A DNA stretch of 64,000 bases from Raja brachyura (Eukaryota): the NCBI GenBank assembly GCA_963514005.1, contig OY740804.1, positions 5,518,001-5,582,000 of the forward strand. Direction: 5' to 3'. The number at the start of each line of letters is the position of its first letter. Position 1 is the first letter of the stretch. Of the stretch, positions 10,857 through 35,777 are shown piece after piece. A model generated the notes under the pieces. The model did not search any database. It was not told the DNA's origin and was given only the letters and a program-made list of their open reading frames with translations. A program made the position numbers and the translations under genes.

Positions 10857-13800
10857 CGTCTTATCCAAGGAGACCATGTTAGCACTGATCTGCTGCTCAG
10901 CTCTTAGTCCCCAGACTGAACGGTCTGACAAATATGACATGTATTAAGAATGAGGAAGCAGGGAACAGGGAGCCTGATTGTGAAACCAGAATGAGACTGC
11001 TGATAAAATCTGAAACTTTAGAATTTGAAGTTGTCTCAGTTAAATTTAGTTCTGTTTAGTTTAGTAAACAGGCCCTTCGGCCCACCGACTCCATGCCGAT
11101 CAGCAATCCTCGCACATTAACGCTATCCTACACACACCAGGGACAATTTTTTACGTTCACCAAGCCAATTTACCTACATACCTGTATGTCTTTGGAGTGT
11201 AAAATAAAAGTAATCCAATTTTCATTGACTGATGAAAATAGTCCAGCCTTTTATTAATTTATTTTTTACTTTTAGAGATACAGTGTGGAAACAGGGCCTT
11301 CAACCCACCGAGTCCGCACCGACCAGCAATCACCCCGTATACACTAGCACTATCCTACACTTTAGACACAATTTACAATTTTTCTTACCAAAGTCAATCA
11401 ACCTACAAACCTGTTCGTCTTTGGGATGTGGGAGGAAACCAGAGCACCGGGAGGAAACCCATGTAGTCACAGGGAGAACGTACCAACTCTGCAGACAGCA
11501 ACCGTAGTCAGCATCGAATCCAGGTCTCTGGCGCTGTGAGGCAGCAGCTCTACCGCTGCTCCACTGTCCCACCCTAACAGTCAAGCCAAGCCAAGCCAAA
11601 TTTATTGTGATGTGCACAAGAACAGCGAGGCACAGGTACAATGAAAATCTTACTTTCAGCGACATCACAGGCACATATCAAAAAAATGTTTTAAAAAAAG
11701 CTAAATTCAACATAAATTCACTCTTGCTGTTGTTAATCTCGCAGCAATTAATCGCATGCTTACTGCAGGTACAGCTCTGTGGAATGTCAGTAAACCAGAC
11801 TACATAAAGCTTGGATAGACACAAAATGCTGGAGTAACTCAGCAGGACAGGCAGCAACTCTGGAGAGAAGGAATCTCCAGAGCTGCTGCCGGTCCTGCTG
11901 AGTTACTCCAGCATGTTGTGTCTATCTTTGATTAAAACCATCATCTGCAGTTCCTTTATACACATAAAGCTTGGATTATATTTAACTCGTGGCTGAAGGC
12001 CTGTGCTAACGATCCTTCTCATATTTAAGACAGTCTCCCATGTATTATTCTTTCATCACACTGTCTCATCCTATCTGTTACTGAAATTCATATCGAGTGT
12101 GTTGGCTGTTCCAGTGGTCTCTCGTGTAAGTTATCATCTTCCTCCCACCAAAAATTTAAGATCATCCAAATATCAGAATGCACACTAAACTGCACTCGGT
12201 AAACTCATTTATGGGGCGATACAGCATGGAAAAGGCCCTTCGGAACACAGAGTCCACAGCAGCCACTTTCGCATCCGCTCCCTACACACAAGGATGAATT
12301 TGCAGAGAGCCAATTTCCCTACAAACCCACACATCGTAGGGATGTGGGAGGAAATCCGTGCATCCAAAAGAAACGAACATTGTCACAGGGAGAACGTGCT
12401 AACTCCACACAGATAGCACCCAAGGTCAGGATCGAACCCGGAACTCCGATGCTATGAGGCAGCGGCTCTACCTGCTGTGCTAACGTGTGATTGTCTGACA
12501 TATCCTTCAACTTACCTTGCTGGCATGAACAAGGATTGAACCCTGGTTAGCAGCATGGGAGCTGCATGCTTGCAACCTGGCAAGCATGGAAACAGGCTTT
12601 TCGGCCCATACAGCATGGAAACAGGCTTTTCGGCCCACTGAGACTGCTCCAACCAGTGTTCACCCCATATACAATTTACCGTGCAAATTAACCTACAAAC
12701 CTGGAATGTGGGAGGAAACCGGAGCACCCAGAGAAAACCCATGCGGACACAGGGAGAACATACAAACTCCATACAGACAGCACCTGTCAGCATCAAACCT
12801 GGGTCTCTGGCGCTTTAAGGCAACAACTCTACCGCTGTGCCACTGTGTTCTACCTGAAACCCACTGACTTGCCAAGGCAAGGTGCTCTCCCTGAGCTAAC
12901 ATTCTTATACATGTTCTTACTGAATACTTCAGAACCAGGGAACATAGTTCGAGAACCAGAGGACATTGGTTTAAGGTGAGGGGAAAGATTTAATAGGAAC
13001 CTGAGGGAATCTGGACAGGATAGGTTTACAGAGATAATGGCCAAATTTCTTTAGTCAGAGGGTGGTGAATTTGTGGAATTTATTTCAACAGACGGCAGTG
13101 GAAGCCAAGTCAATTAATATTTTTTAGGCAGTGATTGACAGATTCCTGATTAGTGGGAGTGTCAGAGGTTACGGGGGGGAAGGCAGGAGAAGATAGATCA
13201 GCCATGATTGAATGGCAAACTTGATGGGCCGAAAGGTCTAATTCTGCACTTAGAACTTATTTACTTATGAACATTATATGTTTGTGGGTTTCTGTTGCAG
13301 TCATATTCTGAGAAAAGTAACACCAGTCTGAAGTAGGGTCATGACCTGAAATGTCATCTGTCCATTTCCTTTCCCAGACGTTGTTTGAAGGTTTTTTTTT
13401 GTGTTTAGCTCAACTGCTCATATTAACAGGAAGCACGTTGAGCACAGCCAGATGCAGCTCACACTCAATGTTTCATTCCATCGCAAGTTGGCCTTTGATG
13501 TGTTTGTACATTGACTGGAAATGTGTTCAAAACAAATAAATGTGTATTGTTGGGTGAACAAGTTAATGAACAAATATATCAGGCCCCATTCGGTCCTTCA
13601 AAACCACACCATGCATTAAAATCATAGCTTATCCTTTATCATGTCAATATCCAGTAATAGTTCTATTTCCATAGATCCTTTAATATCTAAGAAACAATTG
13701 TTCCCAGGCTAGATTGTATTGGAGTCATAGAGTCAAACAATGCAGAAACAGGCCCTTCGGACCAACTTACCCCTCCTCACTGCGCCTGGACAATTGAGCC

Positions 13801-15355: not shown

Positions 15356-15631
15356 CTAAGAAACAACAGAGGCATAAATTGTCTCAGAGTTCTCTGGAGT
15401 CCCAGTAGATTGGGGTTTCCGATTTCCCTTTGGGCAGTTGCGATGAAAATTGACATCTGCATAGACTACAGCATTGTCAGTCACATGGTGCCTTGACCTC
15501 GACTTCCTTTGACAATTCACCACTGCATACGCGAGTTCACCTTCATTGTTATCCAAATGGTCAACTGCCCTGTTGTTTTCAAGTTGCTGCAGATTTGCAT
15601 AAACGTGGTTCCCTTCCAACACAGCCATTTC
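15356..15631 (-). CDS. Receptor B terminal cytoplasmic exon with ITIM/ITSM motifs
   Basis: Acceptor ttttag|GAA, phase 0. Motifs HVYANL, LAYAVV, VVYADV (ITIM-type) and TIYASV (ITSM). Stop at 15356-15358. Confidence 0.92.
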   Translation of the reverse strand, partial: EMAVLEGNHVYANLQQLENNRAVDHLDNNEGELAYAVVNCQRKSRSRHHVTDNAVVYADVNFHRNCPKGNRKPQSTGTPENSETIYASVVS

Positions 15632-16047
15632 CTAAAATATAACAACATTCAATTTTACAACCTAATATATCTGATAGGTCCTCAACAGATGTCTATTGCA
15701 AAATAGGTCTCAAAGTGTTCAGTGTACAGAACAAGCCATTGCTGTTGTTTACAACACAAAGATAGTGTAACACGGTGGAGCAACGATAGAGTTGCTGCTT
15801 AACAGTGCCTGCTACAGGTTTGTAGGTTAATTGGTTGGCATAATAGCAAATTGCCCCTAGTGTGAGCAGGAGAGTTTAGTGTGCGGGGATCACTGGTCGG
15901 CGTGGAGTCGGTGGGCCCAAGATCTTGTTTCTGCAATGGATCTCTTAAATGGTGTGGACTGGTGTTGCTAAATGGTCTGTGTCTACACATATAATTCAAT
16001 ATTATATATTCTTCATCACTCAGATAATTTATATTTCACATTTTTAC

Positions 16048-16094
16048 CTGGATGTCATTGTTCTCTTCACCGTGTGATGTATTGCAATTGGATT
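16048..16094 (-). CDS. Receptor B first cytoplasmic exon (ESNCNTSHGEENNDIQ)
   Basis: 47 nt, phase 1-0, canonical splice sites, links TM to ITIM exon in frame. Confidence 0.87.
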
Positions 16095-18028
16095 CTGGAA
16101 AATATGTTGTCGATAGGGCCATATTAGGAACAGGTTTAAACATCATTCATTCATATATTTCATTCATTTGTTCTATGTACCTTCTATATCTCTCATTTCT
16201 CGTTCCCCTGACTCTCAGTCTGAAGAAGGGGCTCAATTCTAAAAGTTACCCGTTCCTTTTCTGCAGAGATGCACCCTGACCCGCTGAATTGCTGGAGCAT
16301 TTTGTGTTTATCTTCAGTATAAACCACCATCTGCAGTTCCTTCCAATATACTGAAACATCTATGAGTTTTGTGCAAGACCTTATATTTAGGAGAACCCCA
16401 AAAGTACTGCTGTATATTTGGATGAACGGAGCAAAAATCTGCCCTGTTGTTCTGGTTACTGTACATATGTTCAGAATGGATCATATTCCCTGTGCTCTAC
16501 CCATCCCTCCTGAAAGCTGCCTAAACCTACTTGATCTCCCGGGTTTCTCAACCCTTTAACTACCATTCTCATTCCCACACTAACATTATTATCCTGGGCC
16601 TCCTCCGTTGTCAGAATGAGGCCCAGTGCAATTTGGAGGAAGAGCACCTCATATTTCGCTTGGGCAATTACACCCCAGCGGTATGAACATTGACTTCTCT
16701 AACTTCAAGTAGCCCTTGCTTTCCCTCTCTCTCCATTCCCTCCCCATTCCCAGTTCTTTGTCCAGTCTTACTGTCTCCGACTACATTCTATCTGTGTACC
16801 ATCCACTCCCCTGACATCTGTCTGAAAAAGTGTCTTGACTCGAAATGTCACACATTCCTTCTCTCCAGAGATACTGCTTGTTCCACTGAGTTACTCCAGC
16901 ATTTTTGTCTATCGTCCAAAACGTATCTGCTCCAGCAGGTTTTCATAAGTTCAGTAAGTGATAGGAGCAAAATTATGCTATTTGGCCCATCCATCTACTC
17001 ATTCACTCATGGCTGATCTATCTCTCCCTCCTAACCTCTTTCTCCTGCCTTCTCTCCACAATCCAGGACACCTGTACTAATCAAGAATCTAACTATCCAT
17101 CTATGCCATAAAAATATCTATTGACAGCCTCCATAGCATTCTGTGGCGAAACATTCCACAGATTCATCACCCTCTGACAAAATAAATTCTTCCTCATCTC
17201 CATCCTAAAGGAATGTCCTTTAATTCAGAGGTTATGACCTCTGGTCCTGGACAGTCCCACTAGTGGAAACATCCATTCTACATCTACTCTATCCAGGACT
17301 TTCACTATTTGATGTTTCAATGAGGTTCCCCCCTCTTTTCCCTCTTACCCTGTTGTAATGGGTCTTGGATCTGAAATGTTTACTGTTTACTTTCCACTAA
17401 TGCTCTCTGACTGAGAAACAGCTCAGTGAACTTTCACATTTTCATCGGCGATGGAGATAGTTGGCAGCTTCAAGTTCATGGGCGTTCACATCTTGGGTTA
17501 CCTGTCCAGGCTAAACCTGCCCTGCCTCAACTACCTCCTCTGGCAGCTCCTGCCATATACCCACCACCCTCTGTGTGAGGCAGGTATGTTGTACGTTGTC
17601 TATGTCCCTGTGAGGCTGCAGGCGTGATCTTCATTGTAACAGTACTTCACCGTGCTTGTGCATGTGGCAATAAACAAGACTTAACCCGATTCGAAATACA
17701 ACAGCTAATCACACAAAGCATATTCTAACAGCTGAGAGGATGAGAGTATCAATGTAAATCTTACTTCTACCCAGCCTCTTAGTTCTCTACCATGTCTGCC
17801 ATTTCACACTGAGACAGTTTCTGTACAATGATGTTCTAAGAACAGTTTTGTCACCGAATCACCATGATAGCATCAAATATGATAGCATTATTGATCAATT
17901 ATGCTTCCTCCTACATTTATTATTTTAATACAGTGCATTTGTTGATTAGAACAGAATAAAATCTCTTGCATTCTGCAAGTAACTGAGACATATATTGTGA
18001 AATTATTTAAGGGAAATCAGGAACTCAC

Positions 18029-18117
18029 CCTTGGTTTTACGCTTTCGGTACCAACAGAAGGCAATGATGAGAATCAGGAAAAGCACAGTGACACCAGGCG
18101 CAAATATGTAAGTGATC
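18029..18117 (-). CDS. Receptor B transmembrane exon (ITYIFAPGVTVLFLILIIAFCWYRKRKTK), uncharged TM
   Basis: 89 nt, phase 2-1, donor GG|GTGAGT. Not in the ORF track; translated by hand. Confidence 0.9.
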
Positions 18118-18379
18118 CTGTCAGACAGAGAATAGGGAAGGGTGAGACATGGCTCATCATTGATTCTTGGCCTTCAGTAAAGAACAAAAGTCAAGCGTTA
18201 ATATGGCACCTTTCATGATTTTTCTGAAGTGTGCAGCAAAGGAAATGAAGTGTAGAGTCTGTTTCAGTGGATAATGCAACATATAATTGCTCACAGTAAG
18301 GTGACATTGACCAACGATCATGAAACCTGTTGAAGAGCAATTGGGTCCAACCATTAAGGAGCAATGCATGGGAACTGCA

Positions 18380-18752
18380 CGGGAAGATTGCACGGGAAGA
18401 TTGTTCCCGATGTTGGGGGAGTCCAGAACAAGGGGTCACAGTCTAAGGATAAGAGGGAATTCCTTTAGGGCCGAGATGAGGAAAACATTCGTTACACAGA
18501 GAGTGGTGAGTCTCTGGAATTCTCTGCCACAGAAGGTAGTTGAGGCCAGTTCATTGGCTATATTTAAGAGGGCGTTAGATGTGGCACTTGTGGCTAAAGG
18601 GATCAGGGGGTATGGAGAGAAGGCAGGTACGGGATACTGAGTTGGATGATCAGCCATGATCACATTGAATGGCGGTGCAGGCTCGAAGGGCCGAATGGCC
18701 TACTCCTGCACCTATTTTTCTATGTTTCTATGTTTCTATGTTTCTATGTTCT
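18380..18752 (+). mobile_element. CR1 3' fragment
   Basis: RTRGHSL...TQRVVSLWNSLP, 3' UTR, (ttctatgt)n tail. Confidence 0.9.
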
Positions 18753-20273
18753 AACTGTTACAACTTTTGCAATGATTAGTTTAGTTTAGTTCAGCTGAGT
18801 TTGGTTTAGTTTAGTTTAGAGATACAGCATGGAAACAGGCTTTTCGGCACACCAAGTGTTCAACGGCCAGCAATCCCCATACACTAGATCTACCCTAAAC
18901 ATTAGAGACAATTTTATAGAAGCCAAGTAACCTACAAACCTCCACGTCTTTGGAATGTGGGAGAAAACTGGACCGTTTGGAGAAAACCCACGTGGTCACT
19001 GAGAGAACGAACAAACTCCATACAGACAGCAATCATAGTCAGGATCGATCACAAGTCTCTGGGGCAGTACAGCAGCAACTCTACCACTGTGCCACATGCC
19101 AAAGAGAGAACAATGCACTTGGTTCACAACAAATCCCACCCCAATGACATTCACAACTCCATCTCCACAAATATTGGTTTGGACGGTGACTGTTCGCTTA
19201 GAGCTGTCTGGAATATGGAACATCATCAACATATCCAGAAGGCGGCTCATCATGACCATCTCAAGGTCAACAGTGTGACCTAACGTGCCTACCACCCAGG
19301 CTCACGTTCTAAGTGGAGACACTTCCTGCTGTTGGAGTGACTGGCATTGAGCCTTTGACCAACTCTACAAGGTGTTGCCATACGTGATATCAAATGTGGT
19401 GTTTTAGCCCATAATTCACTATGCATTTTCCTATCAATACCACACCAGAGCAAGGCAAAGCGACAATACTTGGGTTTGGCAACTATACTCATTTCACACC
19501 ATGGGATGAGGTTAGTGATGGAGAAGTCATGGTGAATACTGAAGGGAAGCCCTCTGAAGGGCAACAAATGGAGGAACTTGTTCTTATCACCCAAGCATAT
19601 ACACAACACAATGAGATGTAAACCAGTGCAATTTCCCTTCTGACGTGTTAAGTACTATCTGGTTTGCAAGTTATATACTTATATTATTTTAGAATAAAGT
19701 AATAAGAAATAGGAGTCGAATTAAGCCAATTGGCCCATCAAGTGTACCGTGCCATTCAAACATGACTGATCTATCTCTCCATTCTCCTGTCTTCTCCCCA
19801 TAACCTCTGACACCTTGATCATCGTAACTTTTTTGCATATCTTTCATTCATTCTTTTATATATTTCTGTATCACCGTTAATATCACTCTCGTTTCTCTTT
19901 CCCCTGACTCTCACTCTGAAGAAGGGTCTCAACCCGAAACGTTACCTATCCCTTTTCTCTAGAGGTGTTGGCTGACCCGCCAAGTGACTCCAGGTCTTTA
20001 TTCCTATATTCAGTTGAAACCAGCATCTGCAGTTCCTTCCTACACAATGAAAGCAAACTATGCAGACCAAACATAGATGGCACCTAAGTTCAGGGTCTTG
20101 GCATTGTGAGGCTGTGGTTCCACTGGCTGTGTCACTGTGTATTCAGATCATTACTCCAACTGGACTTTAATGCCAGTGAACGGAAGACTCAACTTTCTCC
20201 CAATTGAAGCAACCCCACTCATAACACCAGCAATTAGTACATGGCACCTTTCATTGGAAACAGAGTAGTTTAC

Positions 20274-20322
20274 CATGAAGAATCATTGGATCCTTTCGAA
20301 GTTTCACAAGAATATCCATGTC
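20274..20322 (-). CDS. Receptor B stalk exon (GHGYSCETSKGSNDSSW)
   Basis: 49 nt, phase 1-2, acceptor ttccttattccaacag, donor GTAAAC. Bridges C2 to TM in frame. Confidence 0.8.
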
Positions 20323-21091
20323 CTGTTGGAATAAGGAAATAAAAATCAGTTTCACTGCTTTTCACTTGCAGTTGAACAAGAGAGCATGCTTGTCCGATGT
20401 AAGGATTTTATAGGCTTAATAGAAAGGGCAATGGTTCTTCATTGAAATTTGCAGCAGATGGGAGATGTTGTCATGATAAGCTGATGGATGACAACTCAGG
20501 TCACCAACAATACGGCAGCACAGTGGTAGAGTTGCTGCCAATGAATGCAGCCCGAGTTAGATCACGGCTATGGGATGGTGTTAATGTGCAGGGATGGCTC
20601 GCTGGTCGGCGGGCCCTCGCTGGACGGCGCGGACACGGTGGGCCGAAGAGCTTGTTTCCGCATTGTATCTCTAAACTAAAGGCGTGCAGTTTTGTAGGTT
20701 AATTGGTTTCTGTAATTTGTCCATTAATTTAGAATTGTCCCTAATTGTAGAATTGGTGTACCGGTGAAAGGCAGCTGCTTCCACGCTGGATCTCTAAACT
20801 AAACTGGATAGATGGGGTTTTTATTCCACACAGGAGAGGAATGAGGAAGCTATTGCAGGTGTGCAAATCTATGAGGAACATAGATAGGGAACTTCGTGGG
20901 AAATCAGCACAGCAGATGTGCGTAGAAGTGGAGAACATTGGGTTGGATTAAGGAGTAGAATATTTGGATGGTATCTGACCAAGAAATATTTTTAAACCTA
21001 GATGGTGGAGGCACTTGAATTGTCAAGTCTGAGAAGACTATGGATGAGGGGCTGGTAAAAATGGGATAAGTATCGATGGTAACACATTAAT

Positions 21092-22125
21092 TAGGTATGT
21101 TACAAAACTTACCTTGACCAGTGCTGCAGTTCTGCCGCTCCCCGTGTGCGCGACTTTGGCGCCTTTCAGAGGGGGACGGGCTTAAAGTGCCGTTTTTCCA
21201 CAGGCAGGAAAAATCGATGAATGTCGGGCGATTTCGTTGCAGAAGAAAAATCGTTCCGACATTTCATGAATGAAGGTATTTTTAAATTACTCTAAATTAT
21301 TTGTTAACTAGAGTAATTTAAAAATCACCTTCAAAAGCCGTGAGAACCGACAACCGGTAGGATTTTGCGTAGGGGAGAAAAATTGGTAAATAGTTTATTT
21401 TTATATTAAAAGTTGGTTTTTCGGGAGGCTTTAATAATATTTTCATGTTGCGAAATGAGGTCCAAAAAAATGTATGAACCAACAGTATTTTTCCTCATGA
21501 CTTCACCGCTAACCACAATGTTCCAATCCACCGCATTCCACTAAAACCCACTCGCTAGTTGATTTAAATGGCCATTCATTTACAGGCATTAAACACTAAA
21601 TTCCTTCCATTTGGCCCAGAAATTCATGAAAATTAGATTTAAAAATTATGTTATATTGTGGATTATTGTGTGAATGTTATTTGGACACTTAGGCAATTAA
21701 AAAAAAGTTTATCTTTTCTTAAGAAATGGATAGATGTTTAGATCTACTCATTGAATTTTGTAATTAGCTACAATTAGATAACTAACTAATTATATGCTTT
21801 AATTTCAGGTCATCCAAGTAAGATTGTTTCATATTTATTTCAGAATGCATCAATCTATAATAAGTGAAAATTTCATTGAGTTCTATTAATTTTGAAGAAA
21901 GTTATGGGCTTTTAACTGATCCAGATCGCAGCTTTTGAGTTAAGTCTATTGAAAGGCAATGGGGAACAAGATGCTAATTTCCGAGTATGAAAATGGCCAT
22001 AACTTTCTTAATACTGAAGATATGAAAGTGAATTAGGTGTCAAATTAAACTTATTTTTATGCTTTATCTGATGGGATAAATTGCAGACTTGATTTTTAAA
22101 ATCTCAAAATTTTGTAACATTGCTA
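21092..22125. mobile_element. Non-autonomous DNA transposon (about 1 kb, hAT-like)
   Basis: Terminal inverted repeats TAGgtATGTTACAAAA / TTTTGTAACATtgCTA, flanked by the direct repeat cattaat. No ORF. Confidence 0.75.
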
Positions 22126-22583
22126 CATTAATTGTAACACAGTGGACCAAAGCTGATAGTGTCTAGGAGTTAACTGTGGCCACATTTACGGATAATTTCT
22201 GTTCACTTCCCATATTTGAGCGTCGGTCATGTGGAGATGATGGAAAGTGAAAGTGCTTGGACTGATGTCACTTCAAACCTAGTTTAAAGCTGTGTAAACA
22301 TAAGAGGAAGTTCTAGGCAGGAAGCTGGCCTACACCAGCACTGGGAAATCTATTTCTGGAGCTCAGCAACCAAGTATGGACAAATAGGCCATAATTCCAC
22401 CATATTAATCTTGATAAGTTAATTAAATAATGTGCATGGATTTCAGGGTGTTGGGGGTTAGGGGGTGAAGAGGGGAAGATAGATCAGCCATGATAGAATG
22501 GTCTATTTCTGCTTTATCACATGATCCTATGAACCACCCCACGCCCACTTCCCCTTCTTCTCCTCATTCCCACCACTACTTAC

Positions 22584-22904
22584 CAGTGCCGTTGATTTTC
22601 ACTAAGAAACTGCAGCGAACATCACTGCTGGAGATGGACACGTTGACCATTTCACTGGATTTTGCTCCATTATTATTTGAGGCTGTGCAATAATATTGAT
22701 GGTGCTGGTGTTTGAAGGATTGACAATGTAGATCCAGGGAATTGTTGTCTGAGATATTTGAATCCACTGATGGGGTCTTTTCATACCAGGTGTAGCTAAT
22801 TGGAAGGGAACCCCTGACCGACTCACAGGACAGGGTCACTGAGCCCACGTGACAGGAGACATTGGCTAGTGACAGAAATCCAAGCACAGGAACAGACACG
22901 GGGT
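22584..22904 (-). CDS. Receptor B membrane-proximal C2-type Ig exon (type b)
   Basis: 321 nt, phase 1-1. SVTLSCESVRGSLPISYTWY...QYYCTASN is an FcR/FCRL/PECAM-like pattern. Confidence 0.92.
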
Positions 22905-23596
22905 CTGTGGAAAGGAGCAAACAATCAGATACTGAGTGAACATTTGATAATCAAACACTCGCCAACAACCACCTTCTGTGTATCTTAGCCAGAGCCGGCA
23001 GGTTGGAATCTGACCCATCCTTCTACGTAGAGTTAGAGTCATCCAGCGTAGAAACAGGCCCTTCGGTCTAAGTTGACCATGCTGACAAATATGCCCTATC
23101 TGCATTAGTTGCACCGGCCCTTGCTTGGCCCCTCTAAACGTACCCTACTCATGTACCTGCCCAAATATTTCTTAAATGTTGCGAAAGTACCTGCCATAGC
23201 TACTTCTGTCGGCAGTACATTTCATATACCTACCAACCTTGTGTAAAAACGTTACTCCCCAGATTCTTAAATCCATCCATAAAACTATGTCCTCAGGTTC
23301 TCGATTCCCCCACTCTGGACTAAAGGCTCTGCATTTACTCGATCAATTCACCGCATGATTTTTGTTTACCTGCCAGAAGATCATCCCTCATCCTCCTGCG
23401 CTCCAAGAAATAAAGTCATCGAACCCTCCCTCAACCCGTCCCTGTAGGTCGGGCCCTCAAGTCATTGCAATATCCTTGTAAGTCTTCTCTGCGCCCTATC
23501 CAACTTGTCAGCATCGTTCCTATAACATGGTGATTAAAACTGACCACAAAACAGACAAATCATCAGACAAATCTTGGATTCTCTTTTACATTTCAG

Positions 23597-23850
23597 GAAT
23601 TACCAGCTGAAAGGGAAGCATTGTTTATGCAACAGTGTTGGATATTCAAAGCAACAAGGAAGCTGCCCATATGTCTAATGAGAATCAAACTGTGTATGGA
23701 GTGCAATTTCAAAGGAAATCGACATGGACACACTCCAGTACAGATGAGGACAAGGTCAGCTACTCAAAGCAACAGCCAAATTGCCCATCAGAAAGCTCCT
23801 TCTCCTCACAATCCATTTACCAGATTTATACATCTCCGTGTCTCTCCATC
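23597..23850 (+). pseudogene. Inverted, frameshifted ITIM-tail exon relic (copy 1)
   Basis: Acceptor ctcttttacatttcag|GAA. IVYATV...NQTVYG.QFQRKS...DEDKVSYS aligns with the receptor B terminal exon. Confidence 0.8.
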
Positions 23851-24162
23851 CTCCTAGTTGCCAAAACTACCATGTCTGCCACTGTACCAGTACACAGCAG
23901 CACCATCTCTCTTTGTTTTATATTTCTAGCATCTGCAGTTAATCTTCTTTTAATCTGAAACTCTGCCACAATTCGACAAAACCAACATTCAATCACCTCA
24001 TTAGTGCAACTATCAACAACTTTTTAATTAGTGTATAAACTTGTTGATAGTGATAGTGTTGCACGAATGAGGTGTGTGAATGGCGGTATTGTAGAATTGT
24101 GTGCAGGGAGCGAATGGGAAAGAGGAATTACATAGAACTAGTGTGACTGGTGATCGCTAGTC

Positions 24163-27100
24163 AATAGACAATAGACAATCAACAACAGGTCCATTCGGCC
24201 CTTCAAGCCAGCATCGCCATTCAATGTGATCAAGGCTGACCATTCCCAATCAGTACCTCGTTCCTGCCTTCTCCCCATATCCCCTGACTCCATCAACTTT
24301 AAGAGCCCTATCTACCTCTCTCTTGAAAGTATCCAGAGAACCGGCCTCCACCGCCCACTAAGGCCGAGAATTCCACAATCACAACTCTCTGTGAGAAAAA
24401 GTGTTTCCTCGTTTCCGTTCTAAATGGTTTAGCACATATTCTTAAACTGTGGCCCCTGGTTCTGGACTGCCCCAATATCGGGAACATGTTTCCTGCCTCT
24501 AGTGTGTCCAAACCTTTAACTATTTTATATGTTTCAATAAGAATCCCTCTCATCCTTCTAAGCTCAAGAGTGTACAAGCCCAGCTGCTCCATTCTCTCAG
24601 CACATGGCTGTCCTGCCATCCCGAGAATTAAATTTGTATACGTACACTGCACTCCCCCACTAGCAAGAATGTCCTTCCTCAAATTAGGGAACCAAAACTG
24701 CAGATAATACTCCAGGTACAGTCTCACTAGGGCCCTGTACAACCGCAGAAGGACCCCTTTGCTCCTGTACTCAACCCCTCTTGTTGTAAAGGCCAACATG
24801 CCAATCGCCTTCTTCACTGCCTGTTGTACCTGCATGGTTGCTTTCATAGACTGATGTACAAGGACCCCCAGATCCCATTGTACTTCCCCTTTTCCCAACT
24901 TGACGCCATTTAGATAGTAATCTGCCTTCCTGTTTTTTATACCGAAGTGGATAACCTCACATTTATCCATATTAAACTTCATCTGCCAAGCATCTGCCCA
25001 CTCCCCCAACCTGTCCAAGTCACCCTGCAACGTCATAGCATCCTCCTCACAGTTCACACTGCCACCCAGCTTTGTGTCATCCGCAAATTTGTTAATGTTA
25101 CTTTGAATCCCTTCACCCAAATCATTGATGTATATTGTAAATAGCAGCGGTCCCAGCACTGAGCCTTGCGGTATCACACTTGTCACTGCCTTCCATTCTG
25201 AAAGGGACCCGTTAATCCCTACTCTTTGTTTCCTGTCTGCCAACCAATTTTCTATCCATGTCAACACTCTGCCCCCAATACCATGTGCCCTAATTTTGGC
25301 CCACTAATCCCCTATGTGGGACCTTAACAAATGCATTTTGAAAGTCCAAGTTAACTACATCCATTGGCTCTCCCTTGTCCATTTTCCTAGTTACATCCAC
25401 AAAAAATTTCAGAAGATTAGTCAAGCATGATTTCCCCTTCGTACATCCATGATGACTCGGACCGATCCTGTTACTGCTATCCAAACGTGCGGCTATCTCA
25501 TCTTTTATAATTGACTCCAGCATCTTCCCCACCACCGGTCAGGCTAACTGGTCTATAAATCCCTGTTTTCTCTCTCCCGCCGTCCTTAAAAAAGTGGGAT
25601 AACATTAACTACCCTCCAATCCACAGGAACTGTTCCTGAATTTATAGAACATTGGAAAATGATCACCAATGCATCCACAATTTCTAGAGCCACTTCCTTA
25701 CGTACCCTGGGATGCAGACCATCAGGCCCTGGGGATTTATGAGCCTTCAGTCCCATCAGTGTACCCAACACCATTTCCTGCCTAATGTGAATCTCCTTCA
25801 ATTCCTCCGTCACCCCAGATCCTCTGGCCACTGCTATATCAGAAAGATTGTTTGTGTCCTCCTCAGTGAAGATGGATCCAAAGTAGCTGTTCAACTCACC
25901 TGCCATTTCCTTTTTTCACCTTTTTCAGTCTTCAAAGGTCCAATTTTGGTCTTAACTAATTTTTTCCTCTTCACATACCTAAAAACGCTTTTACTATCCT
26001 CCATTATATTCTTGGCTAGCTTAACTTTGTACCAAATCTTTTCTCCCCGTAGTGTCTTTTGAATTATCTTCTGTTGCTCTTTAAACATTACCCAATACTC
26101 TTGCTTCCCGCTCATCTTTGCTACATTCTCCTTTATTTTTATACTGTCCCTGACGTCCCTTGTCAGCCATGGTCGCCCTTTACTCTCCTTGGAATCTTTC
26201 TTCCTCTTTGGAATGAACTGATCCTGCACCTTCTGTATTATTCCAAGAAATACCTGCTATTGTTGTTCCACTGTCATCCCAGCCAGGGTATCTTTCCAGT
26301 CAACCTTGGCCAGCTCCTCCCGCATGGCTCCATAGTCCCTTTATTCAACTGTAACACTGACACCTCCGATCTACCCTTCTCCCTCTCCAATTGTAGATTA
26401 AGCCTGACCATATTATGGTCACTACCTCCTAATGGCTCTTTAACCTCAAGTTCCTTTATCAAATCCTGTTCATTACATAACACTAAATCCAGAATTGCCT
26501 TCTCCCTGGTAGGCTCCAGTTCAAGCTGCCCTAAGAATCCACCATGAAGGCACTCCACAACCTCCCTTTCTTGGGGTCCAGTACCAACCTGATTTTCCCA
26601 GTCTACTTGCATGTTGAAATCTCCCATAACAACCGTAGCATTACCTTTACTACATGCCAATTTTAACTCATGATTCAACTTGCACCATATACGCAGGCTA
26701 CTGTTTGGTATTTTTAATTAGGGTCTTTTTACCCTTACAATTCCTTAGTTCTATCCATACTGACTCCACATCTCCTGTTTCAATGTCACCCCTTGCAAGG
26801 TACTGAATTTAATTCCTCACCAACAGAGCTACCCCACCCACTCTGCCCACCTGTCTGTCTTTTTGATGGGAGGTATACCCTTGGATATTCAGTTCCCAGC
26901 CCTGGCTCTCTTGCAGCCATGTCCCTGTAATTCGCACAACATCATACTTGCCAATTTCTAACTGAGCCTCAAGCTCGTCCACTTTATTTCTTATACTTCG
27001 CGCATTTATATACAACACTTTCACCTCCGTATTCACCACCCCTCTTGCAGCGCTCGCAATTGGCCCTGACCCTATTGTTATATTCCGTCTCGAACTTTCC

Positions 27101-28392
27101 TTCCCAATAATTCGAGAATCTTTTGTAATTTTTCCTGTCCTCACTTCCCCTTCAACTCCATCCATATACTCCCAATTTGCCAATCCCTCCCCCCCACTAT
27201 TTAGTTTAATCCTACATGTGTAGCCCTAGCAAACCGGCCTGCCAGTACGTCGGTCCCCCTCCAGTTAAGGTGTAATCCGTCCCTTTTGTGCAGGTTACCC
27301 CTACCCAAGAAGAGATCCCAGTAGTTTATCAATCTAAATCCTTGTTCCCTGCACCAGGCCCTCAGCCACACATTCAGGTCCACGATCTCCCTGTTAGAGT
27401 CCTCACTAGCACGAGGTAATGGAAGCAATCCAGAGATAACTACCCTAGAAGTCCTGCTTTTCAGTCTTCTTCCTAACTCTCTGAACTCACTTTGGAGAAC
27501 CTCCTTCCTCTTCTTCCCGATGTCGTTTGTGCCTACATGCACAACTACTGCTGGCTGTTCACCTTCTCTCTATCTCTATCTCATCTCTAAGAGTGGAGCC
27601 ACCAATGTGTCTGTCGCTTGGACTGGAAGCATCGTCTCCCCCGATAGTTCCCAAGAGAGCGTACCTGTTTTCATTAGGCACAGCCACCTGGGTATCCTGC
27701 ACTCCACGGTTACCACCTTTTCTCTCAGTCACACACCTTTGTTCTTCCCGTATCCTCGGCATGACAACCTCACTGTAGGTCCCGTCCAGGAAACTCTCGT
27801 TTTCCCGGATGGCCCTGATGTCATCCAGCTGCTTCTCCAGTGCCCCAACACGATCCTTCAGGAGCTGAACCTGAACACACTTGCCACAATTGTAGCAGCC
27901 AGAGGCTCCATCCGTGTCCTTGGGCTCTCACAAACATCACCCTGCCTCATCTTACCCGTCATGTGTTCACCGCGCCCCGTCCTCTCCAGCTTCTTGCGTA
28001 GCCTCCTCTCCTCAGCCTCCTCGAAGACACTTGAGCCAAAGACTCACACTTTACTCACAAGGCCGCTCCCTCACTGCCACTCCCCGAGAGCAGCCTTGCT
28101 TATATTGACTGATAAATTGCCTAATTTGCCAATTTACAAACTAAATTCCTCAGATTTAAACATTTTTTTCCCTGTGACTGACACTTTTCCCACGGGCTTC
28201 AGTCAATAAGCTCTTCTCCCTGCTTCTCTTGATTACTGGTTCTCCAAGATCCACATAAGCTCTGAGCTAACACTGGATTTTTGGCAGTCCTTTTAAGCTG
28301 TTTTTCCCCTCTGCTTCAACTTTCCCACAGGTTTCAGCCAATAAGCTCTTCTCCCTGCTCCTCTTGATTGCTGCTTCTCCAAGCACTGGGCT
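24163..28392 (-). mobile_element. Older near-full-length CR1 LINE in the receptor B V-C2 intron
   Basis: Fragmented esterase ORF1 (HVGTND, DGLH) and APE-RT ORF2 (NARS, GDFN, FADD). (aatagac)n tail. Empty site in the paralog near 39086. Confidence 0.93.
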
Positions 28393-28606
28393 CGTTGTGG
28401 ACTCGGTGGGCCAAAGGATCCGTTTCCATGTTGCATTTGTAAACTACAACTAAATATCCGGGTGAACCTCTTCTGCATCCTCTCCAAACCTTTGACATCT
28501 TTTGTTTTATAACGCGGCGACCAGAACTGTGCACCAGACTCCCACCCAACAAATGTTTTGTCCGTTGCCAAAGTGGAGAAATAAAGTCACTCATTGAGAA
28601 ACTTAC

Positions 28607-28924
28607 CTTCGGATACTTGGAGATGTACTTTAAATGTTGGTTTGCCAGGTGTAGTAATTCCACAACTGTACCATCCTGTATCTCCAGAGTGAAGATCCTC
28701 CACAGTCACAGTAAATATTCCTCGCGCCAAGTTATCTGTTATTGACACTCTTCCGCTCGGTCCATATTTCCCATTTGTTTCCACTACATGTGTACACTGG
28801 GGACTTGTCCCAGCGCACCAGTATTTTGTGTCTGAGCGGTAAACTGCTGCATAGTGACAATCGATTGTGATCGTTCTTCCCACAACCCCGCTTACTTCGC
28901 TCTCAGCCCACAGTGCACCTGAAA
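28607..28924 (-). CDS. Receptor B V-set Ig exon (V2 type)
   Basis: 318 nt, phase 1-1. IDCHY, KYWC-x6-C, DTGWYSC. Donor AAG|GTAAGT. Confidence 0.93.
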
Positions 28925-29572
28925 CTGAAAGAAACATCTTTCATAAATTGGTGCAAAATTAGCCTTTCACAGACATATACATTAGCGTATACATCAATGT
29001 GTATAGGGGAGTCCACCCAATGATTTTCTTAACTCTGTTGAATTCCACCTAGATTGCGATGAGAGACAGATACTGTACACCGTCCCTCACCACCTGCACA
29101 GTTCGTTCCAAAGCGCTTCCCAGCCAATGTGGGTGTGAATGGTGAAGAATGATGCAATGAACACGGAGCCTGTTGCATTTGGAAGGCGCTGTCTAGGAAG
29201 TCTTGGTGAGTTGCTGCAGTGCATTGTGGAGATGGTGCAAAGTGCTGCTGCACCAGCGGGGGAGGTTGAGGATGGGGTGTCTATCAAGCGCGATTCTGGG
29301 TCATGACAGACCAAGCACAAGTGTTCAGTTAAACTGTGGCCCAGACCAGTGCTTCTTAAACTGATGAATGGTTCATCCAAGGGTGAATGAAATTATTTTG
29401 GGTTGAATGAGTTAATTTATGTTTTTTGCTCATGTGACAAAATAAATTAAATATAAAATTATACACAAGGGAGAATAAGACGAAAATTACCAAAAAAACA
29501 TAAGAACATGTACTCAAGGGTGAATTAAATGTTGTGATAAAGACTCAAGGGTGAATGACACTGAAATTGTTT

Positions 29573-30260
29573 TAGAAACATAGAAACATGGAAAATAGGT
29601 GCAGGAGTAGGCCATTCGGCCCTTCGAGCCTGCACCGCCATTCAATATGATCATGGCTGATCATCCAACTCAGTATCCTGTACGTGCCTTCTCTCCATAC
29701 CCCCTGATCCCTTTAGCCACAAGTGCCACATCTAACTCCCTCTTAAATATAGCCAATGAACTGGCCTCAACTACCTTCTGTGGCAGAGAATTCCACAGGT
29801 TCATCACTCTCTGTGTGAAAAACATTTTACTCATCTCGGTCCTAAAAGACTTCCCCCTTATCCTTAAACTGTGACCCCTTGTTCTGGACTTCCCCAACAT
29901 CGCGAACAATCTTCCTGCATCTAGCCTCTCCAACCCCTTAAGAATTTTATAAGTTTCTGTAAGATCCCCCCTCAATCTTCTAAATTCTAGCGAGTACAAG
30001 CCGAGTCTATCCAGTCTTTCTTCATATGAAAGTCCTGCCATCCCAGGAATCAGTCTGGTGAACCTTCTCTGTACTCCCTCTATGGCAACAATGTCTTTAC
30101 TCAGATTAGGAGACCAAAACTGTACGCAATACTCCAGGTGTGGTCTCACCAAGACCCTGTACAACTGCAGCAGAACCTCCCTGCTCTTATACTCAAATCC
30201 TTTTGCTATGAATGCTAACATACCATTTGTTTTCTTCACTGCCTGCTGCACCTGCACCTG
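29573..30260 (-). mobile_element. CR1 3' fragment, resuming at about 32231-32345 beyond the nested insertions
   Basis: LVRPHLEYCVQFWSP...FFTQRVMNLWNSLP. Upstream RT piece DTKLGG at about 32330. Confidence 0.9.
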
Positions 30261-30263
30261 CAA

Positions 30264-30720
30264 CAGGCACGTGCCGTCAGGGTAGGCAAGGTAGGCACTG
30301 CCTACCCTGACTAAAATTATGAAATGGCAATTATTAAATATAAATAGTAAAGGCATGGGAGAATTATGCCTATCTAAGAGATCAATCTCCTAGGTAGACA
30401 TAATTCTCCGTGCCTTTCATCTGCAGCACTTGTAACATGTGAAGGTCTGTGCAGCCCACCTGCCGTCAGCGCTGCCTGAGCCATCAGTTTCAAGGGGAGC
30501 AGAAGGCAGCAGAAATTTGCAGCACAGCGCATGCGCAGCATCATACTGCGCATTCGCAGCGTGAGTTTCTTGGCGGGATTTTCAAATATGGATTGCCATT
30601 ATTTTAATAGTATCTCAGGAAACAAAAAGTGAAGAATGGACTTATGGTACCAATAACGTGGTAAGTGCATTTCTTGGCGCTTAATTTTTATAAATACTGT
30701 ATTTCCCGGGGTGGGGGAGA
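30264..30720. mobile_element. DNA transposon terminus, hAT-like
   Basis: Starts CAGGCACGTG with the subterminal hairpin gtcagggtaggca...tgcctaccctgac. No second end found. Confidence 0.45.
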
Positions 30721-31099
30721 GCTCCGTTCACAGTGTTTGGGGAGTCTGGCATTGTGAAGGGGGGGATTGGGGCCAATAACCCACTTGCCACGCTCCGGTC
30801 TGAGTGCAGGTAAATGGGACTAGGTGAGAGTAAGTGTTCGGCACAGACTGAAAGGGCCGAGATGGCCTGTTTCCATGCTGTAATTGCTGTATGGTTTTAT
30901 TGTGGCCGGGGAGTGAATTAGCTTGGGTGGCTGCCGCAGCACTCTGCGCACGAACGGCAGAACTGGCCACCACTTCCGAGGAAGGAAGCAGCTTGGGTGA
31001 CTGACTTTGAGCGGCCACCGGGACTCGACAGCAGAACCGGCTGCCACTTCAGCCCCTTCTGCTGGTCCCCACTCACCTCTGGCAGTGCTCTCCGTCTGA

Positions 31100-32230
31100 A
31101 CATCTCTCAACTGCCGTACTTGGAATGTGTGTGAAGCTCTTATGCTTCTTCGCCAATGGGCTCCTGTTGCAAGCCTATCTCTAGCCAAATTAACCATGAA
31201 TGTGGTCATGCTTATGGCGTTGGTTTTAGCCCAGCGTGTGCAAACATTGCAAAAGCTTCGGCTAGACAGAATGCATGTGTCGGCAGATGCCATTATATTT
31301 TATGTCTATGATTTGCTTAAACTTAGTAGGATAGGCATGACAGGATGTAAGATTGTGTTTTCAGCATACCCCACAGATGATCGCCTGTGTGTAGTTTCAC
31401 ATTTATCTTGTTACATTGAGGCTACCAGAGTCATATGAGGAACAGAGTCTGCATTATTTATTAGCCTAAAAAAACCACACAGTAAGGTGTCGGTGCAAAC
31501 AATCTCAAGGTGGCTAAAGCAGGTTCTGGGAATTGCTGGGATTGCTACTGATAAATTCAAATCTCATTCCACCAGTGCGGCATCAATTTCCGCGGCAAGG
31601 GCGATGGACGTACCGATAGACCATATCCTCGCGGCCGCAGGATGGTCCAGTGCGCTGACCTTTCAAAGGTTTTTATCACAAGCCGATTTCAAGGCTGGGG
31701 GTGTTTGCTGATTCTGTTTTGAGTTCTGTTACAGTTTCCCCCTGAGTTAGAGGGGTTTGTTATGGTTTCGTTAGTAAATAAACTGTTATTCATTTAACAA
31801 ATGTTATTATTGATGCATTATTAATTGTTAACGACTTTTGAGTCAATCGATGCAGTGTGAACGCCGGGTTTGGGTCTGCGGCTGAAATCACAGTGCTTTG
31901 AAGTCTTCACGTAGTCATTCGTGACTCCGAAATAAAATAGTAAGATTAAATGTGAATTTACCAGTTTGAAGTTTGATCTTTATTTTATGAGGAGTTGCAA
32001 TGAGGGATTAGTGCCCTCTGCTCCCAGCCCTCATTGATCTCATCTGGTAGTTCTAGTCTTTGTTATCTTACCATTATACTTCAGTCATTGTTACCAGTGA
32101 GTTCACTCCGCTGCTTTGAAGATTGACGCACCAACGGCTGTACGGGGTTCTTCACATAGTTCCTCATCGCAACTCCTCATAAAATAAAGATCCAACTTCA
32201 AACTGGTAAGTTCTCGTTTAATCTTACTAT
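31100..32230 (+). mobile_element. DIRS-like tyrosine-recombinase retroelement, 3' portion
   Basis: Decayed recombinase: AQRVQTL, ISRWLK, KSHSTS(R)AAS, AAGWSS..TFQRF. Inverted pair at about 31935-32005 and 32160-32230. Confidence 0.85.
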
Positions 32231-32960
32231 TATACTGCATCTGCCATGCATTTGCCCACTCACTCAACCAATCCAAGTAACCCTGCTGCCTCCTAACATC
32301 CTCCTCACAGCGAACACTGCCCCCCAGCTTCGTGTCATACGCAACCTTTGAGAAGGACTGGCCTTGGCTGCGCTTGGTCTCGCTGTTGTAAACCATTCAC
32401 ACTCTCTTCATCACTTCCAATCTGAACATCTCCACACCTACTGGGAGTTTGATAAAGTAAGGGTTATACATGATGGAGTGACGGTCAAGGAGATTCCACT
32501 TTAATTTTGTGAGATTACTGGAATTCCAGTGATTCACACAAATTAACAGAGTTAAAATCATGAACATTATCATGAAATTGTACGTCCTTAGTTATAAATG
32601 TTCATGGATCCAAATAGAATGCATTTGGTGCTTTCTCTGTCTCAAATTGACTGTGAGACCTTAAGCGGCATCCAGAAAATCATATTTAAGGCAGAATGCG
32701 GAAATTTGATGGAATGCACACAACCCGTTGTGATAAGTGCAGTTTGTTCTCTCCTTTCGAAGCTCAACACCTCCCAGGTGAATTATTTGCCAGTCCCCAA
32801 ACAAACTCTCGCAATTTACGCCATGTGCTCATGGTGGCTGCAAAGATGCAGCCTGCAAATACTTAGAAACCCATGAACATCACCACAAGTTGAAAAGCAG
32901 CTGCTCCAAGAACACGAGAGGAATTGTGAAACAGTATTCCCACGGGAAAATAACACTCAC

Positions 32961-33281
32961 CTGTATTGTTGATTTCTGTCACATAACTGCACGTTCCTGC
33001 TCCTTTGAAGACTTTCACGTTGAGTATTTCACTGGGTTTTGTCCCACCATTATTTGAGGCTGTGCAGAAATATTGATTTATTTGACCTCCGAGGATTTCA
33101 CAACTCAGATCCAGTTGATTGCCAGAGGAGATCTGTGACCACCCATACTTGTTCTTCTCACACCATGTGTAATGGATGGGAAGGGATCCACGGACAGACT
33201 CACACGACACTGACACTGAGCCTCCGAGACGTGAGGCATTTGCTGGTGACAGAAATCTGAGCACAGGAGCAGACATGGGTT
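32961..33281 (-). CDS. Receptor B distal C2-type Ig exon (type a)
   Basis: 321 nt, phase 1-1, open frame. SVSCESVRGSLPIHYTWC...QYFCTASN. Donor CAG|GTGAGT. Confidence 0.88.
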
Positions 33282-33859
33282 CTATAGGAATGGAACAAAC
33301 TTTAAGTCACCTGCATGAACAGTTAAAACCCAAACACATGCTAAATCTCAGCAACCCTTTATCTCAGCCCGAACCGTCCGGTTGATATCTCACCGGCTCA
33401 TCTACATCTCTGTGAGTGTGCGAAACCCAGAAACCGAAGAAGGTTAGAGTTATAGAGAACCGAAAGAGGCCCATCACAACAGCTCATTCATGGCGACATT
33501 TCCATATGTCCACGTTTCTCCCTTATCACTCGCAATGATCCCAATCTATGCAACTGTCCAAAATGTATTTTAAATGCTGTTATTCTAACTGCCTCTTCAA
33601 CTTCCTCTGGCAGCAGGTTCCATACACATATCACCCAATGTGTGGAGAATGTTGTCCCTCAGAACAGAAGATGGGATGTTATGTGTCAGTTGTACATATG
33701 TTATTGAGGTCGAACTTGGGCGAATTGTGTTCAGCTTCGGCCACTCATCTGTACAAAACATGCCATTACAGTAAATTACACCGAACTACTCCCCCCTCTT
33801 TAAACAATTCCCATTACGTCTGTTCTCCACTTTCCCATCCCACACAGCTGAAGGCAAGG

Positions 33860-34570
33860 TGACAACGAGGTATATAATCAGTAAAATATAATCATGAGGA
33901 CAGCGAAACTAAATGGCAAACTTGGACGGGGTGGGATGGAGACAGGAGTAAAGCAAGGGTTACTGTAGTTAGAGAAGTCAATATCCAAACCTCTGAGTTG
34001 TAAGCTGCCCAAGCGAAATATGAGGTGCTGTTCATCCAATTTGCGTTTGGCCACACTCTGGCAGTGGAGGTGGTCCAGGCCAGAAAGGTGAGTTTGGGAA
34101 TGGGAGGGGGAGTTGGTGTTTACCAATCGAGAAGTAGCGTACGCTGAGGCAGACTGAGTGGAGTTGTTCAGCGAAACGATCGACGAGTCTGCACTTGGTC
34201 TCCCATCTACTGTATCCGCTTGTTCACACCTGGAAAAGCGGATAGAGTAGATGACATTGGAGGAGATGCAAGTGAACCTCTGCCTCACCCAAAAAGACTG
34301 TTGGAGTCCTTGGACGGAGTGGACGGAGGAGGTATAGGGACAGGTGTTGCATCTGCTGCAGTTGTAGGGGAAGCTATCTGGGGAGGGGGTGGTTTTGTTG
34401 GGAAATGACGAGTTGACCAGGGAATTGCGGAGGGAACGGTCTCTTCGGAAAGCAGAAAGCGGCAAAGATGGAAAGATGTGGCTTATGTGGGATCCCATTG
34501 TAGGTGTTGAAAATGTCGGAGGATTATATGCTGTGTGCGACGGCTGATGGGATGAAAGATGAGTTTATTC
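33860..34570 (-). mobile_element. Penelope-like fragment
   Basis: AFRRDRSLRNSLV, CSRCNTC, FTCISSNVIYSIR, EQHLIFRLG. Paralogous to 41905-42200 and 60500-61590. Confidence 0.8.
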
Positions 34571-35264
34571 TGCTTACCACCGGGGAAATGTCCGGGTGGA
34601 GAGGCTGGCTGCCTGCCAGGCGGTGGGTGGACAGTGGCCGCTGGGGGTGGGGGCGTATTAACGGGACAGAGGGGGAGAGAGAGAGAGCGCGCGGGACTGA
34701 CTGATGCATGAGCTGTGGGTGGGAAACGGGCTGGCCTGCCCCGGGAGGACTGAACGTAGAAGAAGGGTCTCGACCCGAAACGTCGCGTATCTCCTTCGCT
34801 CCTTAGATACTGCTGCACCCGCTGAGTTTCTCCAGTTTTTTGTGCAACCCTCGATTCTCCAGCATCTGCAGTTCCTTCTTGTAACACTGTAGTCTGTTGA
34901 GCTCTGGGGACTGATGCCCTGTTTATTATTCTACGGGTATTCAGACCGCGAGCAAAACTTATATCTCATTGTCGGATTATTAGTTTGAGTGGGAATGCAA
35001 ACCTCTGACAGGGTGACATTTCATACAGTTCAGAGGCAGGGAAATGTGCTGAGCGTCGCACTTGAAGTGGGTGGCCGCTCAGTGGGACAGAGCCCGCACT
35101 GGGTGAGAGCAACATGAGTGGGGTTTCCCGACCCCCGCCCGCTCCCCGCAGGTCTCTGCACTGCTGCGGAGCCGCGGGATATCGGTGCTGCCCTGACCCT
35201 TCCCGGAGAAAACATGGATCAGGCGTTTCAGTGGAGACGTCAAGTCAATCGCTGCGAAACGTAC

Positions 35265-35313
35265 CGTCAGATACTTGGAGATGTACAGAAAATATTGGAT
35301 GGTCGGCAGATGT
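35265..35313 (-). pseudogene. Remnant 3' end of receptor B first V exon (TSADHPIFSVHLQVSD); acceptor and most of the exon deleted
   Basis: Matches the 3' end and donor of the V exon at 62159. At 35314 it jumps to sequence matching the paralogous intron near 43615. Confidence 0.88.
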
Positions 35314-35740: not shown

Positions 35741-35777
35741 CGGGCAGCGAGGAGATGAGAAGAATGGGAAACCACAT
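35741..35777 (-). CDS. Receptor B leader exon MWFPILLISSLP
   Basis: 37 nt, ATG at 35777, donor CCG|GTGAGT. Confidence 0.85.

What the first reader, a model, noticed from the sequence alone, without database searches (positions are those of the whole stretch)
23597..23850. Fossil ITIM-tail exon lying inverted in the V-C2 intron of receptor B
Seen: a plus-strand acceptor is followed by IVYATV / NKEAAHM / TVY..QFQRKS / DEDKVSYS / QIYTS. This aligns motif for motif with B's minus-strand terminal exon (HVYANL / NNRAVDHL / LAYAVVNCQRKS / DNAVVYADV / TIYASV) but is frameshifted. Inference: remnant of an inhibitory paralog in the opposite orientation, captured by an inversion. Such an event could uncouple ectodomains from their signalling tails.
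Basis: partly seen in the sequence, partly recalled or inferred. Interest (0 to 1): 0.75.

Follow-up and report, generated by a model that had tools for sequence, protein, structure and literature searches.

The report
Inverted dead tail-exon copies in skate
Two broken, back-to-front copies of a signalling-tail exon sit in introns of a skate immune-receptor gene cluster; they likely came from the neighbouring receptor type and are likely inert leftovers of gene shuffling, since the host gene keeps its own complete tail.

Summary
The window is a skate MDIR (modular domain immune-type receptor) cluster with every exon on the minus strand. At about 23550-23815 (+) lies an inverted piece: 47 bp of intron, an acceptor and the first 219 bp of a tyrosine-motif tail exon. 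It is not a copy of B's tail (27/74 residues identical; a clade with B is rejected, p-AU 0.0002). It matches the tail of the single-V 'A-type' receptor (55/72; E 3e-10), whose other exons lie next door at 10.9-0.5 kb. Both are cut short and carry frameshifts. QIYTS lies past the breakpoint and is likely chance. Both junctions occur in contigs of three differently labelled organisms. Gene B assembles into a complete 489-residue frame, so nothing is uncoupled. No other plus-strand MDIR exon exists in the window. The best reading is an old, short inverted insertion that was duplicated with its module and is decaying neutrally. It is ordinary for such clusters and useful mainly as an evolutionary marker.

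The parts
23550..23596 (+). Relic 1: remnant of the donor's last intron with acceptor AG (23595-23596)
   Evidence: LINE-like contigs diverge behind 23549 (table 7); only other match in the window is 38447-38499
23597..23815 (+). Relic 1: inverted, 3'-truncated copy of the A-type tail exon, with 1-nt, 3-nt and 14-nt losses
   Evidence: 55/72 residues identical to the P0012 tail, score 225 against a shuffle max of 59 in 60; phmmer E 3.2e-10; tree
23816..23960 (.). Low-copy segment past the breakpoint; holds the QIYTS motif and a worn piece of a common short repeat (23894-23940, minus)
   Evidence: profile hit E 2.6e-4; origin of 23816-23893 not established
23960..24108 (.). Palindrome of about 140 bp beside relic 1 (arms 84-89% complementary)
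   Evidence: (z -9.4, 0 of 200 shuffles)
23030..23549 (-). Old LINE 3' fragment next to the C2 exon, interrupted by the relic
   Evidence: matches the 49.3-49.8 kb LINE end, and LINE pieces sit at the like place in all 5 C2 introns aligned; loose ends
24163..28391 (-). LINE insertion present only in copy 1 of the intron
   Evidence: homology to copy 2 stops at 24162 and resumes at 28392; RVT_1
38450..38730 (+). Relic 2: second inverted copy (exon from 38497), with a 1-nt loss near 38518-38525, TGA at 38613 and a 2-nt loss near 38631
38878..39027 (.). Palindrome beside relic 2 (65-nt arms, 85%)
   Evidence: z -13.4
15356..35789 (-). Host gene B (MDIR3-like): leader 35789-35741, C2 33281-32961, V 28924-28607, C2 22904-22584, hinge 20322-20274, TM 18117-18029, cytoplasmic exon 16094-16048, tail 15631-15356
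   Evidence: predicted model, no RNA seen
37690..44212 (-). Partial duplicate of B (leader, V, C2, V, truncated C2) that hosts relic 2; no TM or tail found
548..10868 (-). Gene A (leader, single V, stalk, TM, cytoplasmic exon 594-548), the likely donor type; its tail exon would lie left of position 1
   Evidence: V 70%, stalk 59%, TM 71%, cytoplasmic exon 14/16 to the last module of P0012, which continues into the relic's first residues

Best explanation
The feature is a broken, inverted copy of about 265 bp of an A-type MDIR tail exon, present twice in the window, which likely entered the membrane-proximal V-C2 intron of an ancestral B-type gene as a short templated insertion from the neighbouring gene and is likely inert. 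Shown: identity, orientation, limits, the second copy, the lesions, and an intact host frame. Inferred: a repair or replication template switch copied the 3' end of the neighbouring A-type gene, in reverse, into an old LINE fragment in the intron, and the adjacent palindrome may be a fold-back scar of the same event. The V-relic-C2 module was then duplicated, and each copy decayed separately. Because it lies antisense, the host's splicing would ignore it.
For: Donor type: best of 1.84 billion representatives is P0012, 73%, E 3.2e-10; relics group with P0012 at 100/99, and a clade with B's tail is rejected, p-AU 0.0002. Gene A matches the last module of P0012 exon by exon, and its cytoplasmic exon ends in phase 0, as the relic's acceptor needs. 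Short and sharp-ended: 23550-23815; no other plus-strand MDIR exon. The LINE reads on through the junction position in the relic-free intron at 60.1-60.35 kb. Duplicated with its module: relic exon 89.8%, flanking intron blocks 88-90%, against V 92.6% and C2 95.6%. Dead: frameshifts in both copies, a stop in one, both truncated; 7 of 21 differences synonymous against 4.8 expected under neutrality, P 0.18. Old and real: listed contigs bridge both junctions in 3 of 4 runs laid (X1, X12, X13). Host frame complete.
Against: The intact donor exon was not seen as DNA: it lies outside the window and no genome is held. The donor assignment rests on one automated model, P0012, which fuses two genes; the other searches found no further skate A-type tail. 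Junction microhomology could not be tested. The origin of 23816-23893 is unknown and could be donor 3' UTR, which would lengthen the piece. Raw dN/dS between the copies is 0.44, similar to the V and C2 exons (0.55-0.68), so the neutrality test has little power. A template switch and a trimmed larger inversion leave similar traces.
Confidence: 0.62

Rival explanations
1. The relic is the last trace of a larger inversion, or of a whole A-type gene in opposite orientation, later trimmed by deletions.
For: Inversions between paralogous receptor subclusters are described for CEACAM loci (PMC2832619, passages). This cluster deletes readily: B's first V exon is a 25-codon stub.
Against: No plus-strand leader, V, C2, stalk, TM or cytoplasmic exon in 64 kb. 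The LINE at the left end is the intron's own. The same two junctions occur in three organisms, with no longer version among the 30 listed pieces.
Confidence: 0.25
2. A small DNA transposon, of which the palindrome is a remnant, captured the exon fragment and carried it into the intron.
For: A strong palindrome sits 145 bp from the breakpoint in both copies. Its right arm is covered by more contigs in X13 (12-13 per site).
Against: It occurs only beside the two relics in the window. Its depth in X1 resembles the flanking low-copy segment and is far below the SINE. No matching terminal repeat encloses the relic.
Confidence: 0.08
3. The element is functional: B-type intron RNA would carry about 220 nt antisense to A-type mRNA beside a hairpin and would tune A-type receptor levels.
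For: The geometry allows it. The element is retained in several versions across three organisms. The hairpin is stable. Raw dN/dS is 0.44.
Against: It diverges at the rate of flanking intron. In 64 ungapped arm columns, 0 show a change fixed in both arms of one copy, so there is no sign of compensation. All 12 Rfam matches are far below gathering score.
Confidence: 0.04
4. The feature is an assembly artefact or a chance resemblance.
For: The match to B's tail alone is weak and depends on the search settings.
Against: The match to the A-type tail is strong. There are two copies 10% apart, and contigs of other organisms bridge the junctions.
Confidence: 0.01

Closest known systems
Modular domain immune-type receptors (MDIR; MDIR3 of clearnose skate, ABC86797.1 = P0004)
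   Same: Gene B is collinear with MDIR3 exon by exon; tail 77% identical, E 2.8e-36.
   Different: B has lost its N-terminal V domains. The relic belongs to a different tail lineage. The original MDIR paper (Cannon et al. 2006, PMID 16738934) was not held, so whether it treats such relics is unknown.
Rhinoraja longicauda pIgR-like model XP_078277136.1 (P0012), last module
   Same: Closest intact tail: 55/72 residues to relic 1 and 59/90 to relic 2; its other exons match gene A.
   Different: It is intact and runs 13 residues further to a last tyrosine motif. It lacks the third tyrosine that both relics keep. It is an automated model that fuses a B-like and an A-like gene.
Inversions and tail-exon exchange in paired-receptor clusters (CEACAM family; PMC2832619, passages read)
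   Same: Rearrangement among receptor paralogs that moves cytoplasmic signalling exons.
   Different: There, exon swaps gave new working receptors and inversions span whole subclusters. Here a 265-bp piece landed antisense in an intron and changes no protein.
Short inverted templated insertions from replication or repair template switching (recalled; one search gave search listings only)
   Same: Short, inverted, copied from nearby DNA, with a fold-back-like palindrome next to it.
   Different: Junction microhomology, the usual signature, could not be tested without donor DNA.

Membership tests
MDIR (host gene B) | CD300/pIgR-like V domains with C2 domains in modular array, TM and tyrosine-motif tail (likeness to CD300/pIgR from PMC3031540 passage; the rest recalled) | tested here: met
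   V-set E 1e-13, Ig hits below curated cut-offs on the C2 exons; collinear with MDIR3 at 71-93% per matched exon; full model
MDIR (host gene B) | Expressed, spliced transcript | not testable with these tools
   No RNA run was offered
Copy of B's own tail exon | Groups with B-type tails | tested here: not met
   p-AU 0.0002; 27/74 against 55/72 residues
A-type MDIR tail exon | Groups with the A-type tail and starts in phase 0 after an AG | tested here: met
A-type MDIR tail exon | DNA match to gene A's own tail in this genome | not testable with these tools
   The exon is outside the window and no genome is held; two contigs fit an intact exon but are not proof
ITIM-bearing tail | [SIVL]xYxx[ILV] consensus (recalled) | tested here: met
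   IVYATV in relic 1; P0012 has 2 ITIM-like and 1 ITSM-like motifs. Sequence only, and out of frame with the acceptor in the relic.
Pseudogene fragment | Frameshifts, stop or truncation | tested here: met
Pseudogene fragment | Neutral substitution pattern | tested here: inconclusive
   7 of 21 synonymous, 4.8 expected, P 0.18; raw dN/dS 0.44; low power
Processed retrocopy | Introns removed, upstream exon joined, poly(A) end | tested here: not met
   Keeps the acceptor and about 47 bp of intron, has no upstream exon and stops inside the exon
Dispersed repeat | High copy number with varied flanks | tested here: not met
   2 copies in the window with the same flanks; depth contrast of hundreds-fold with the LINE and SINE
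Opposite-orientation paralog (CEACAM-style) | Other exons of the paralog on the opposite strand | tested here: not met
   the window only
MITE (the palindrome) | Terminal inverted repeats | tested here: met
MITE (the palindrome) | Many dispersed copies | tested here: inconclusive
   Low in X1, higher on one arm in X13; 2 in the window
MITE (the palindrome) | Target-site duplication | not tested
   The right end abuts a SINE at 24099
Known RNA family (the palindrome) | Rfam gathering score | tested here: not met
   0 of 12 matches reach it; best 33.9 against 110 bits

The most novel reading that the evidence does not exclude
Skate B-type inhibitory receptor genes carry, in a shared intron, a captured antisense copy of the neighbouring A-type receptor's tail next to a long hairpin, so that B transcription yields an RNA that silences or tunes A-type receptors: cross-regulation between receptor subfamilies built from an inverted exon fragment.
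Probability: 0.04. Interest if true: 0.7.

Novelty: new member of a known kind. Interest (0 to 1): 0.2.

Why it matters
On the likely reading it changes no protein and answers no open question. Its value is as a marker. It tags one V-C2 intron lineage through module duplications, is shared by at least three differently labelled organisms, and preserves an older state of the A-type tail, including a third tyrosine lost in the one intact relative found. It also shows that skate MDIRs have two deeply split tail lineages side by side. It would matter more only if the antisense piece and hairpin proved to make a regulatory RNA.

Tried and rejected
Whole-genome search: no genome held. Word-index protein search with the relic frame: no candidate; the exhaustive HMMER search found it. 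Of its 3 hits, P0013 and P0014 were dropped as repetitive microbial proteins matching by chance. Search for shorter A-type proteins: 1 of 99 candidates passed, a sawfish protein; A-type tails in proteins of 478 residues or more were not searched again. Expression: no RNA holder listed, which is no evidence either way. Run X14 has no listed piece bridging either junction, but its cover is thin. Rfam hairpin matches rejected as shape only. QIYTS as the homolog of TIYASV rejected; a mangled remnant of the exon end is not fully excluded. Processed retrocopy, dispersed repeat and assembly artefact rejected (see membership tests). Whether the two 1-nt losses near the acceptor are one event could not be settled; contigs with one extra letter there in X1, X12 and X13 lean towards separate events. 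Earlier-findings look-ups by place, words and sequence returned nothing. Literature: 7 searches found no description of this relic; the library lacks most subscription papers, including the MDIR paper. No supplements were read.

Full report
Context. No whole genome is held, so the work rests on the window, protein collections and public contigs. The window is a cartilaginous-fish immune receptor cluster. The tail exon at 15356-15631 finds 11 proteins among 20 candidates: 9 from skates at 73-82% and 2 from sawfish at 48%, including clearnose skate MDIR3. MDIRs are described as CD300/TREM/pIgR-like receptors of skate (PMC3031540, passages). Mapping these proteins on the window gives leaders at 62.9, 44.2, 35.8 and 10.8 kb, with every V, C2, hinge, TM and cytoplasmic exon on the minus strand.

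The observation. The acceptor ends at 23596 and the five motifs are there, all in one open frame, 23611-23958. The match to B's tail is above chance: score 77 against a maximum of 45 in 60 shuffles, and 68.6% over 121 nt. It is weak, though. tblastn showed it at one cut-off and not at a stricter one, and only 2 of 9 B-type skate tails hit either relic at E 0.5 or better. A second copy lies at 38497-38730 in the matching intron of a partial duplicate of B.

The donor. An exhaustive search of 1.84 billion representatives with the relic frame gave 3 hits. The best is P0012, a Rhinoraja longicauda model, 73% identical, E 3.2e-10; the other two were dropped as chance. With frameshifts allowed, relic 1 matches this tail at 55/72 residues (score 225, shuffle maximum 59 of 60) and B's tail at 27/74. 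In a tree of 14 tails, the relics and P0012 form a clade at 100/99, and holding the relics with B's tail is rejected, p-AU 0.0002 (P0006, P0011, P0013 and P0014 left out; relics read with X at breaks). The last module of P0012 matches gene A in the window exon by exon: V 70% (the other V exons 60-63%), stalk 59%, TM 71%, cytoplasmic exon 14 of 16. P0012 then continues into the relic's first residues. Gene A's tail exon would lie left of position 1 and was not seen. That gene A carries this tail is therefore inferred from one automated, fused model.

Limits and lesions. On the left, LINE-like contigs diverge behind 23549, leaving about 47 bp of donor intron. On the right, protein homology stops at 23815, 13 residues short of the intact end. 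One X14 contig matches 23763-23815 with 3 differences and then runs on for 27 unaligned letters, and one X12 contig starts at 23555 after 52 unaligned letters; both fit an intact exon with its native flanks but do not prove it. Relic 1 has losses of 1, 3 and 14 nt; relic 2 has losses of 1 and 2 nt and a TGA. After the 14-nt loss the true frame is not the frame of QIYTS, which also lies beyond 23815, so that fifth match is likely chance. Beyond the breakpoint come a low-copy segment with a worn repeat piece, a palindrome of about 140 bp and a SINE from 24099.

Age and decay. The two relic exons are 89.8% identical, like flanking intron blocks (88-90%) and below the V (92.6%) and C2 (95.6%) exons of the same duplication. 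Of 21 differences in 192 aligned coding positions, 7 are synonymous; a neutral simulation expects 4.8, P 0.18. Raw dN/dS is 0.44, and the Ig exons give 0.55-0.68, so this test has little power; the frameshifts are the stronger sign. I laid 4 of the 21 listed runs on 23500-24160. Among the 30 pieces shown (2,446 more not shown), contigs bridge the right junction in X1, X12 and X13 and the left junction in the same three. X1 may be the window's own source. X12 and X13 carry other organism and study codes and match at about 86-92%. X1 holds at least three versions with different indels. The stretch laid did not include the C2 exon, so the intron position in those organisms is inferred from shared flanks.

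Effect on the host. B assembles from 8 exons with GT-AG at all 7 introns into one 489-residue frame ending in its own tail, with 2 ITIM-like and 1 ITSM-like motifs (predicted, no RNA seen). The relic is antisense to B and cannot join this mRNA. The units at 62.9 and 44.2 kb have no TM or tail in the window. The 62.9-kb unit has no relic, and its intron looks like a recombinant between two C2 intron types. Loss of tails here follows partial tandem duplication, not the inversion.

Mechanism. LINE pieces sit next to the C2 acceptor in all 5 introns aligned, and in the relic-free intron at 60.1-60.35 kb the LINE reads on through the point where the relic starts. The simplest account is a short inverted insertion copied from the neighbouring gene type into that LINE remnant. 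The palindrome arms differ at 4 of 64 columns in both copies, at 17 privately, and at 0 in a concerted way. This fits a palindrome that arose not long before the duplication and then decayed without compensation. Linking it to the same event is inference. A trimmed larger inversion remains possible (0.25); such inversions are described for CEACAM clusters (PMC2832619, passages). Transposon capture (0.08) and a regulatory antisense RNA (0.04) are less likely.

Literature seen. PMC3031540: passages. PMC2832619: passages. PMC6795676: passages, no mention of MDIR. Other papers: search listings and abstract openings only. Cannon et al. 2006: not held, reference line only. Seven searches found no account of this relic, within a library that lacks most subscription journals. 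The ITIM consensus and the template-switch signature are recalled. The labels 'A-type' and 'B-type' are mine.

Verdict. A real, well-defined pseudo-exon with a corrected donor and a second copy. It is ordinary debris of a fast-changing receptor cluster, of modest use as a marker. Interest 0.2.

Noticed in passing
window 35248-35322 (-): B's first V exon survives only as a 25-codon 3' stub; the leader can splice past it to C2 in frame, giving a C2-V-C2 ectodomain.
   Followed up: partly
window 59505-62918 (-): Unit of leader, V and a membrane-proximal-type C2, whose intron switches near 59990 from the 22.8-kb C2 type to the 33/41-kb type; likely an unequal crossover that removed a C2-V-relic block. 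No hinge, TM or tail found downstream.
   Followed up: partly
window 37690-44212 (-): Partial duplicate of B whose last C2 exon is cut off near 37690 by a stop and repeat-like sequence; B's leader follows 1.9 kb later.
   Followed up: partly
window 59385-59435 (-): A 17-codon duplicate of part of the C2 exon just downstream of the 59.7-kb C2.
   Followed up: no
window 53546-54543: GC-rich tandem array, period 80, 12.5 copies, 96% matches, at the 5' end of a LINE.
   Followed up: no
window 49745-52432 (-): Open LINE frame of 895 residues with endonuclease and reverse transcriptase domains.
   Followed up: partly
window 31439-31711 (+): Frame that by recall resembles a tyrosine-recombinase fragment of a DIRS-type element; Pfam gave no hit, so unconfirmed.
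   Followed up: partly
proteins P0001-P0015: Skate MDIR tails fall into two long-branch lineages with the sawfish tails between them. Several B-type paralogs have lost the first tyrosine motif, and P0012 the third.
   Followed up: partly
P0012: The model fuses a B-like gene to an A-like gene, which suggests the same B-then-A order and orientation in that species.
   Followed up: no
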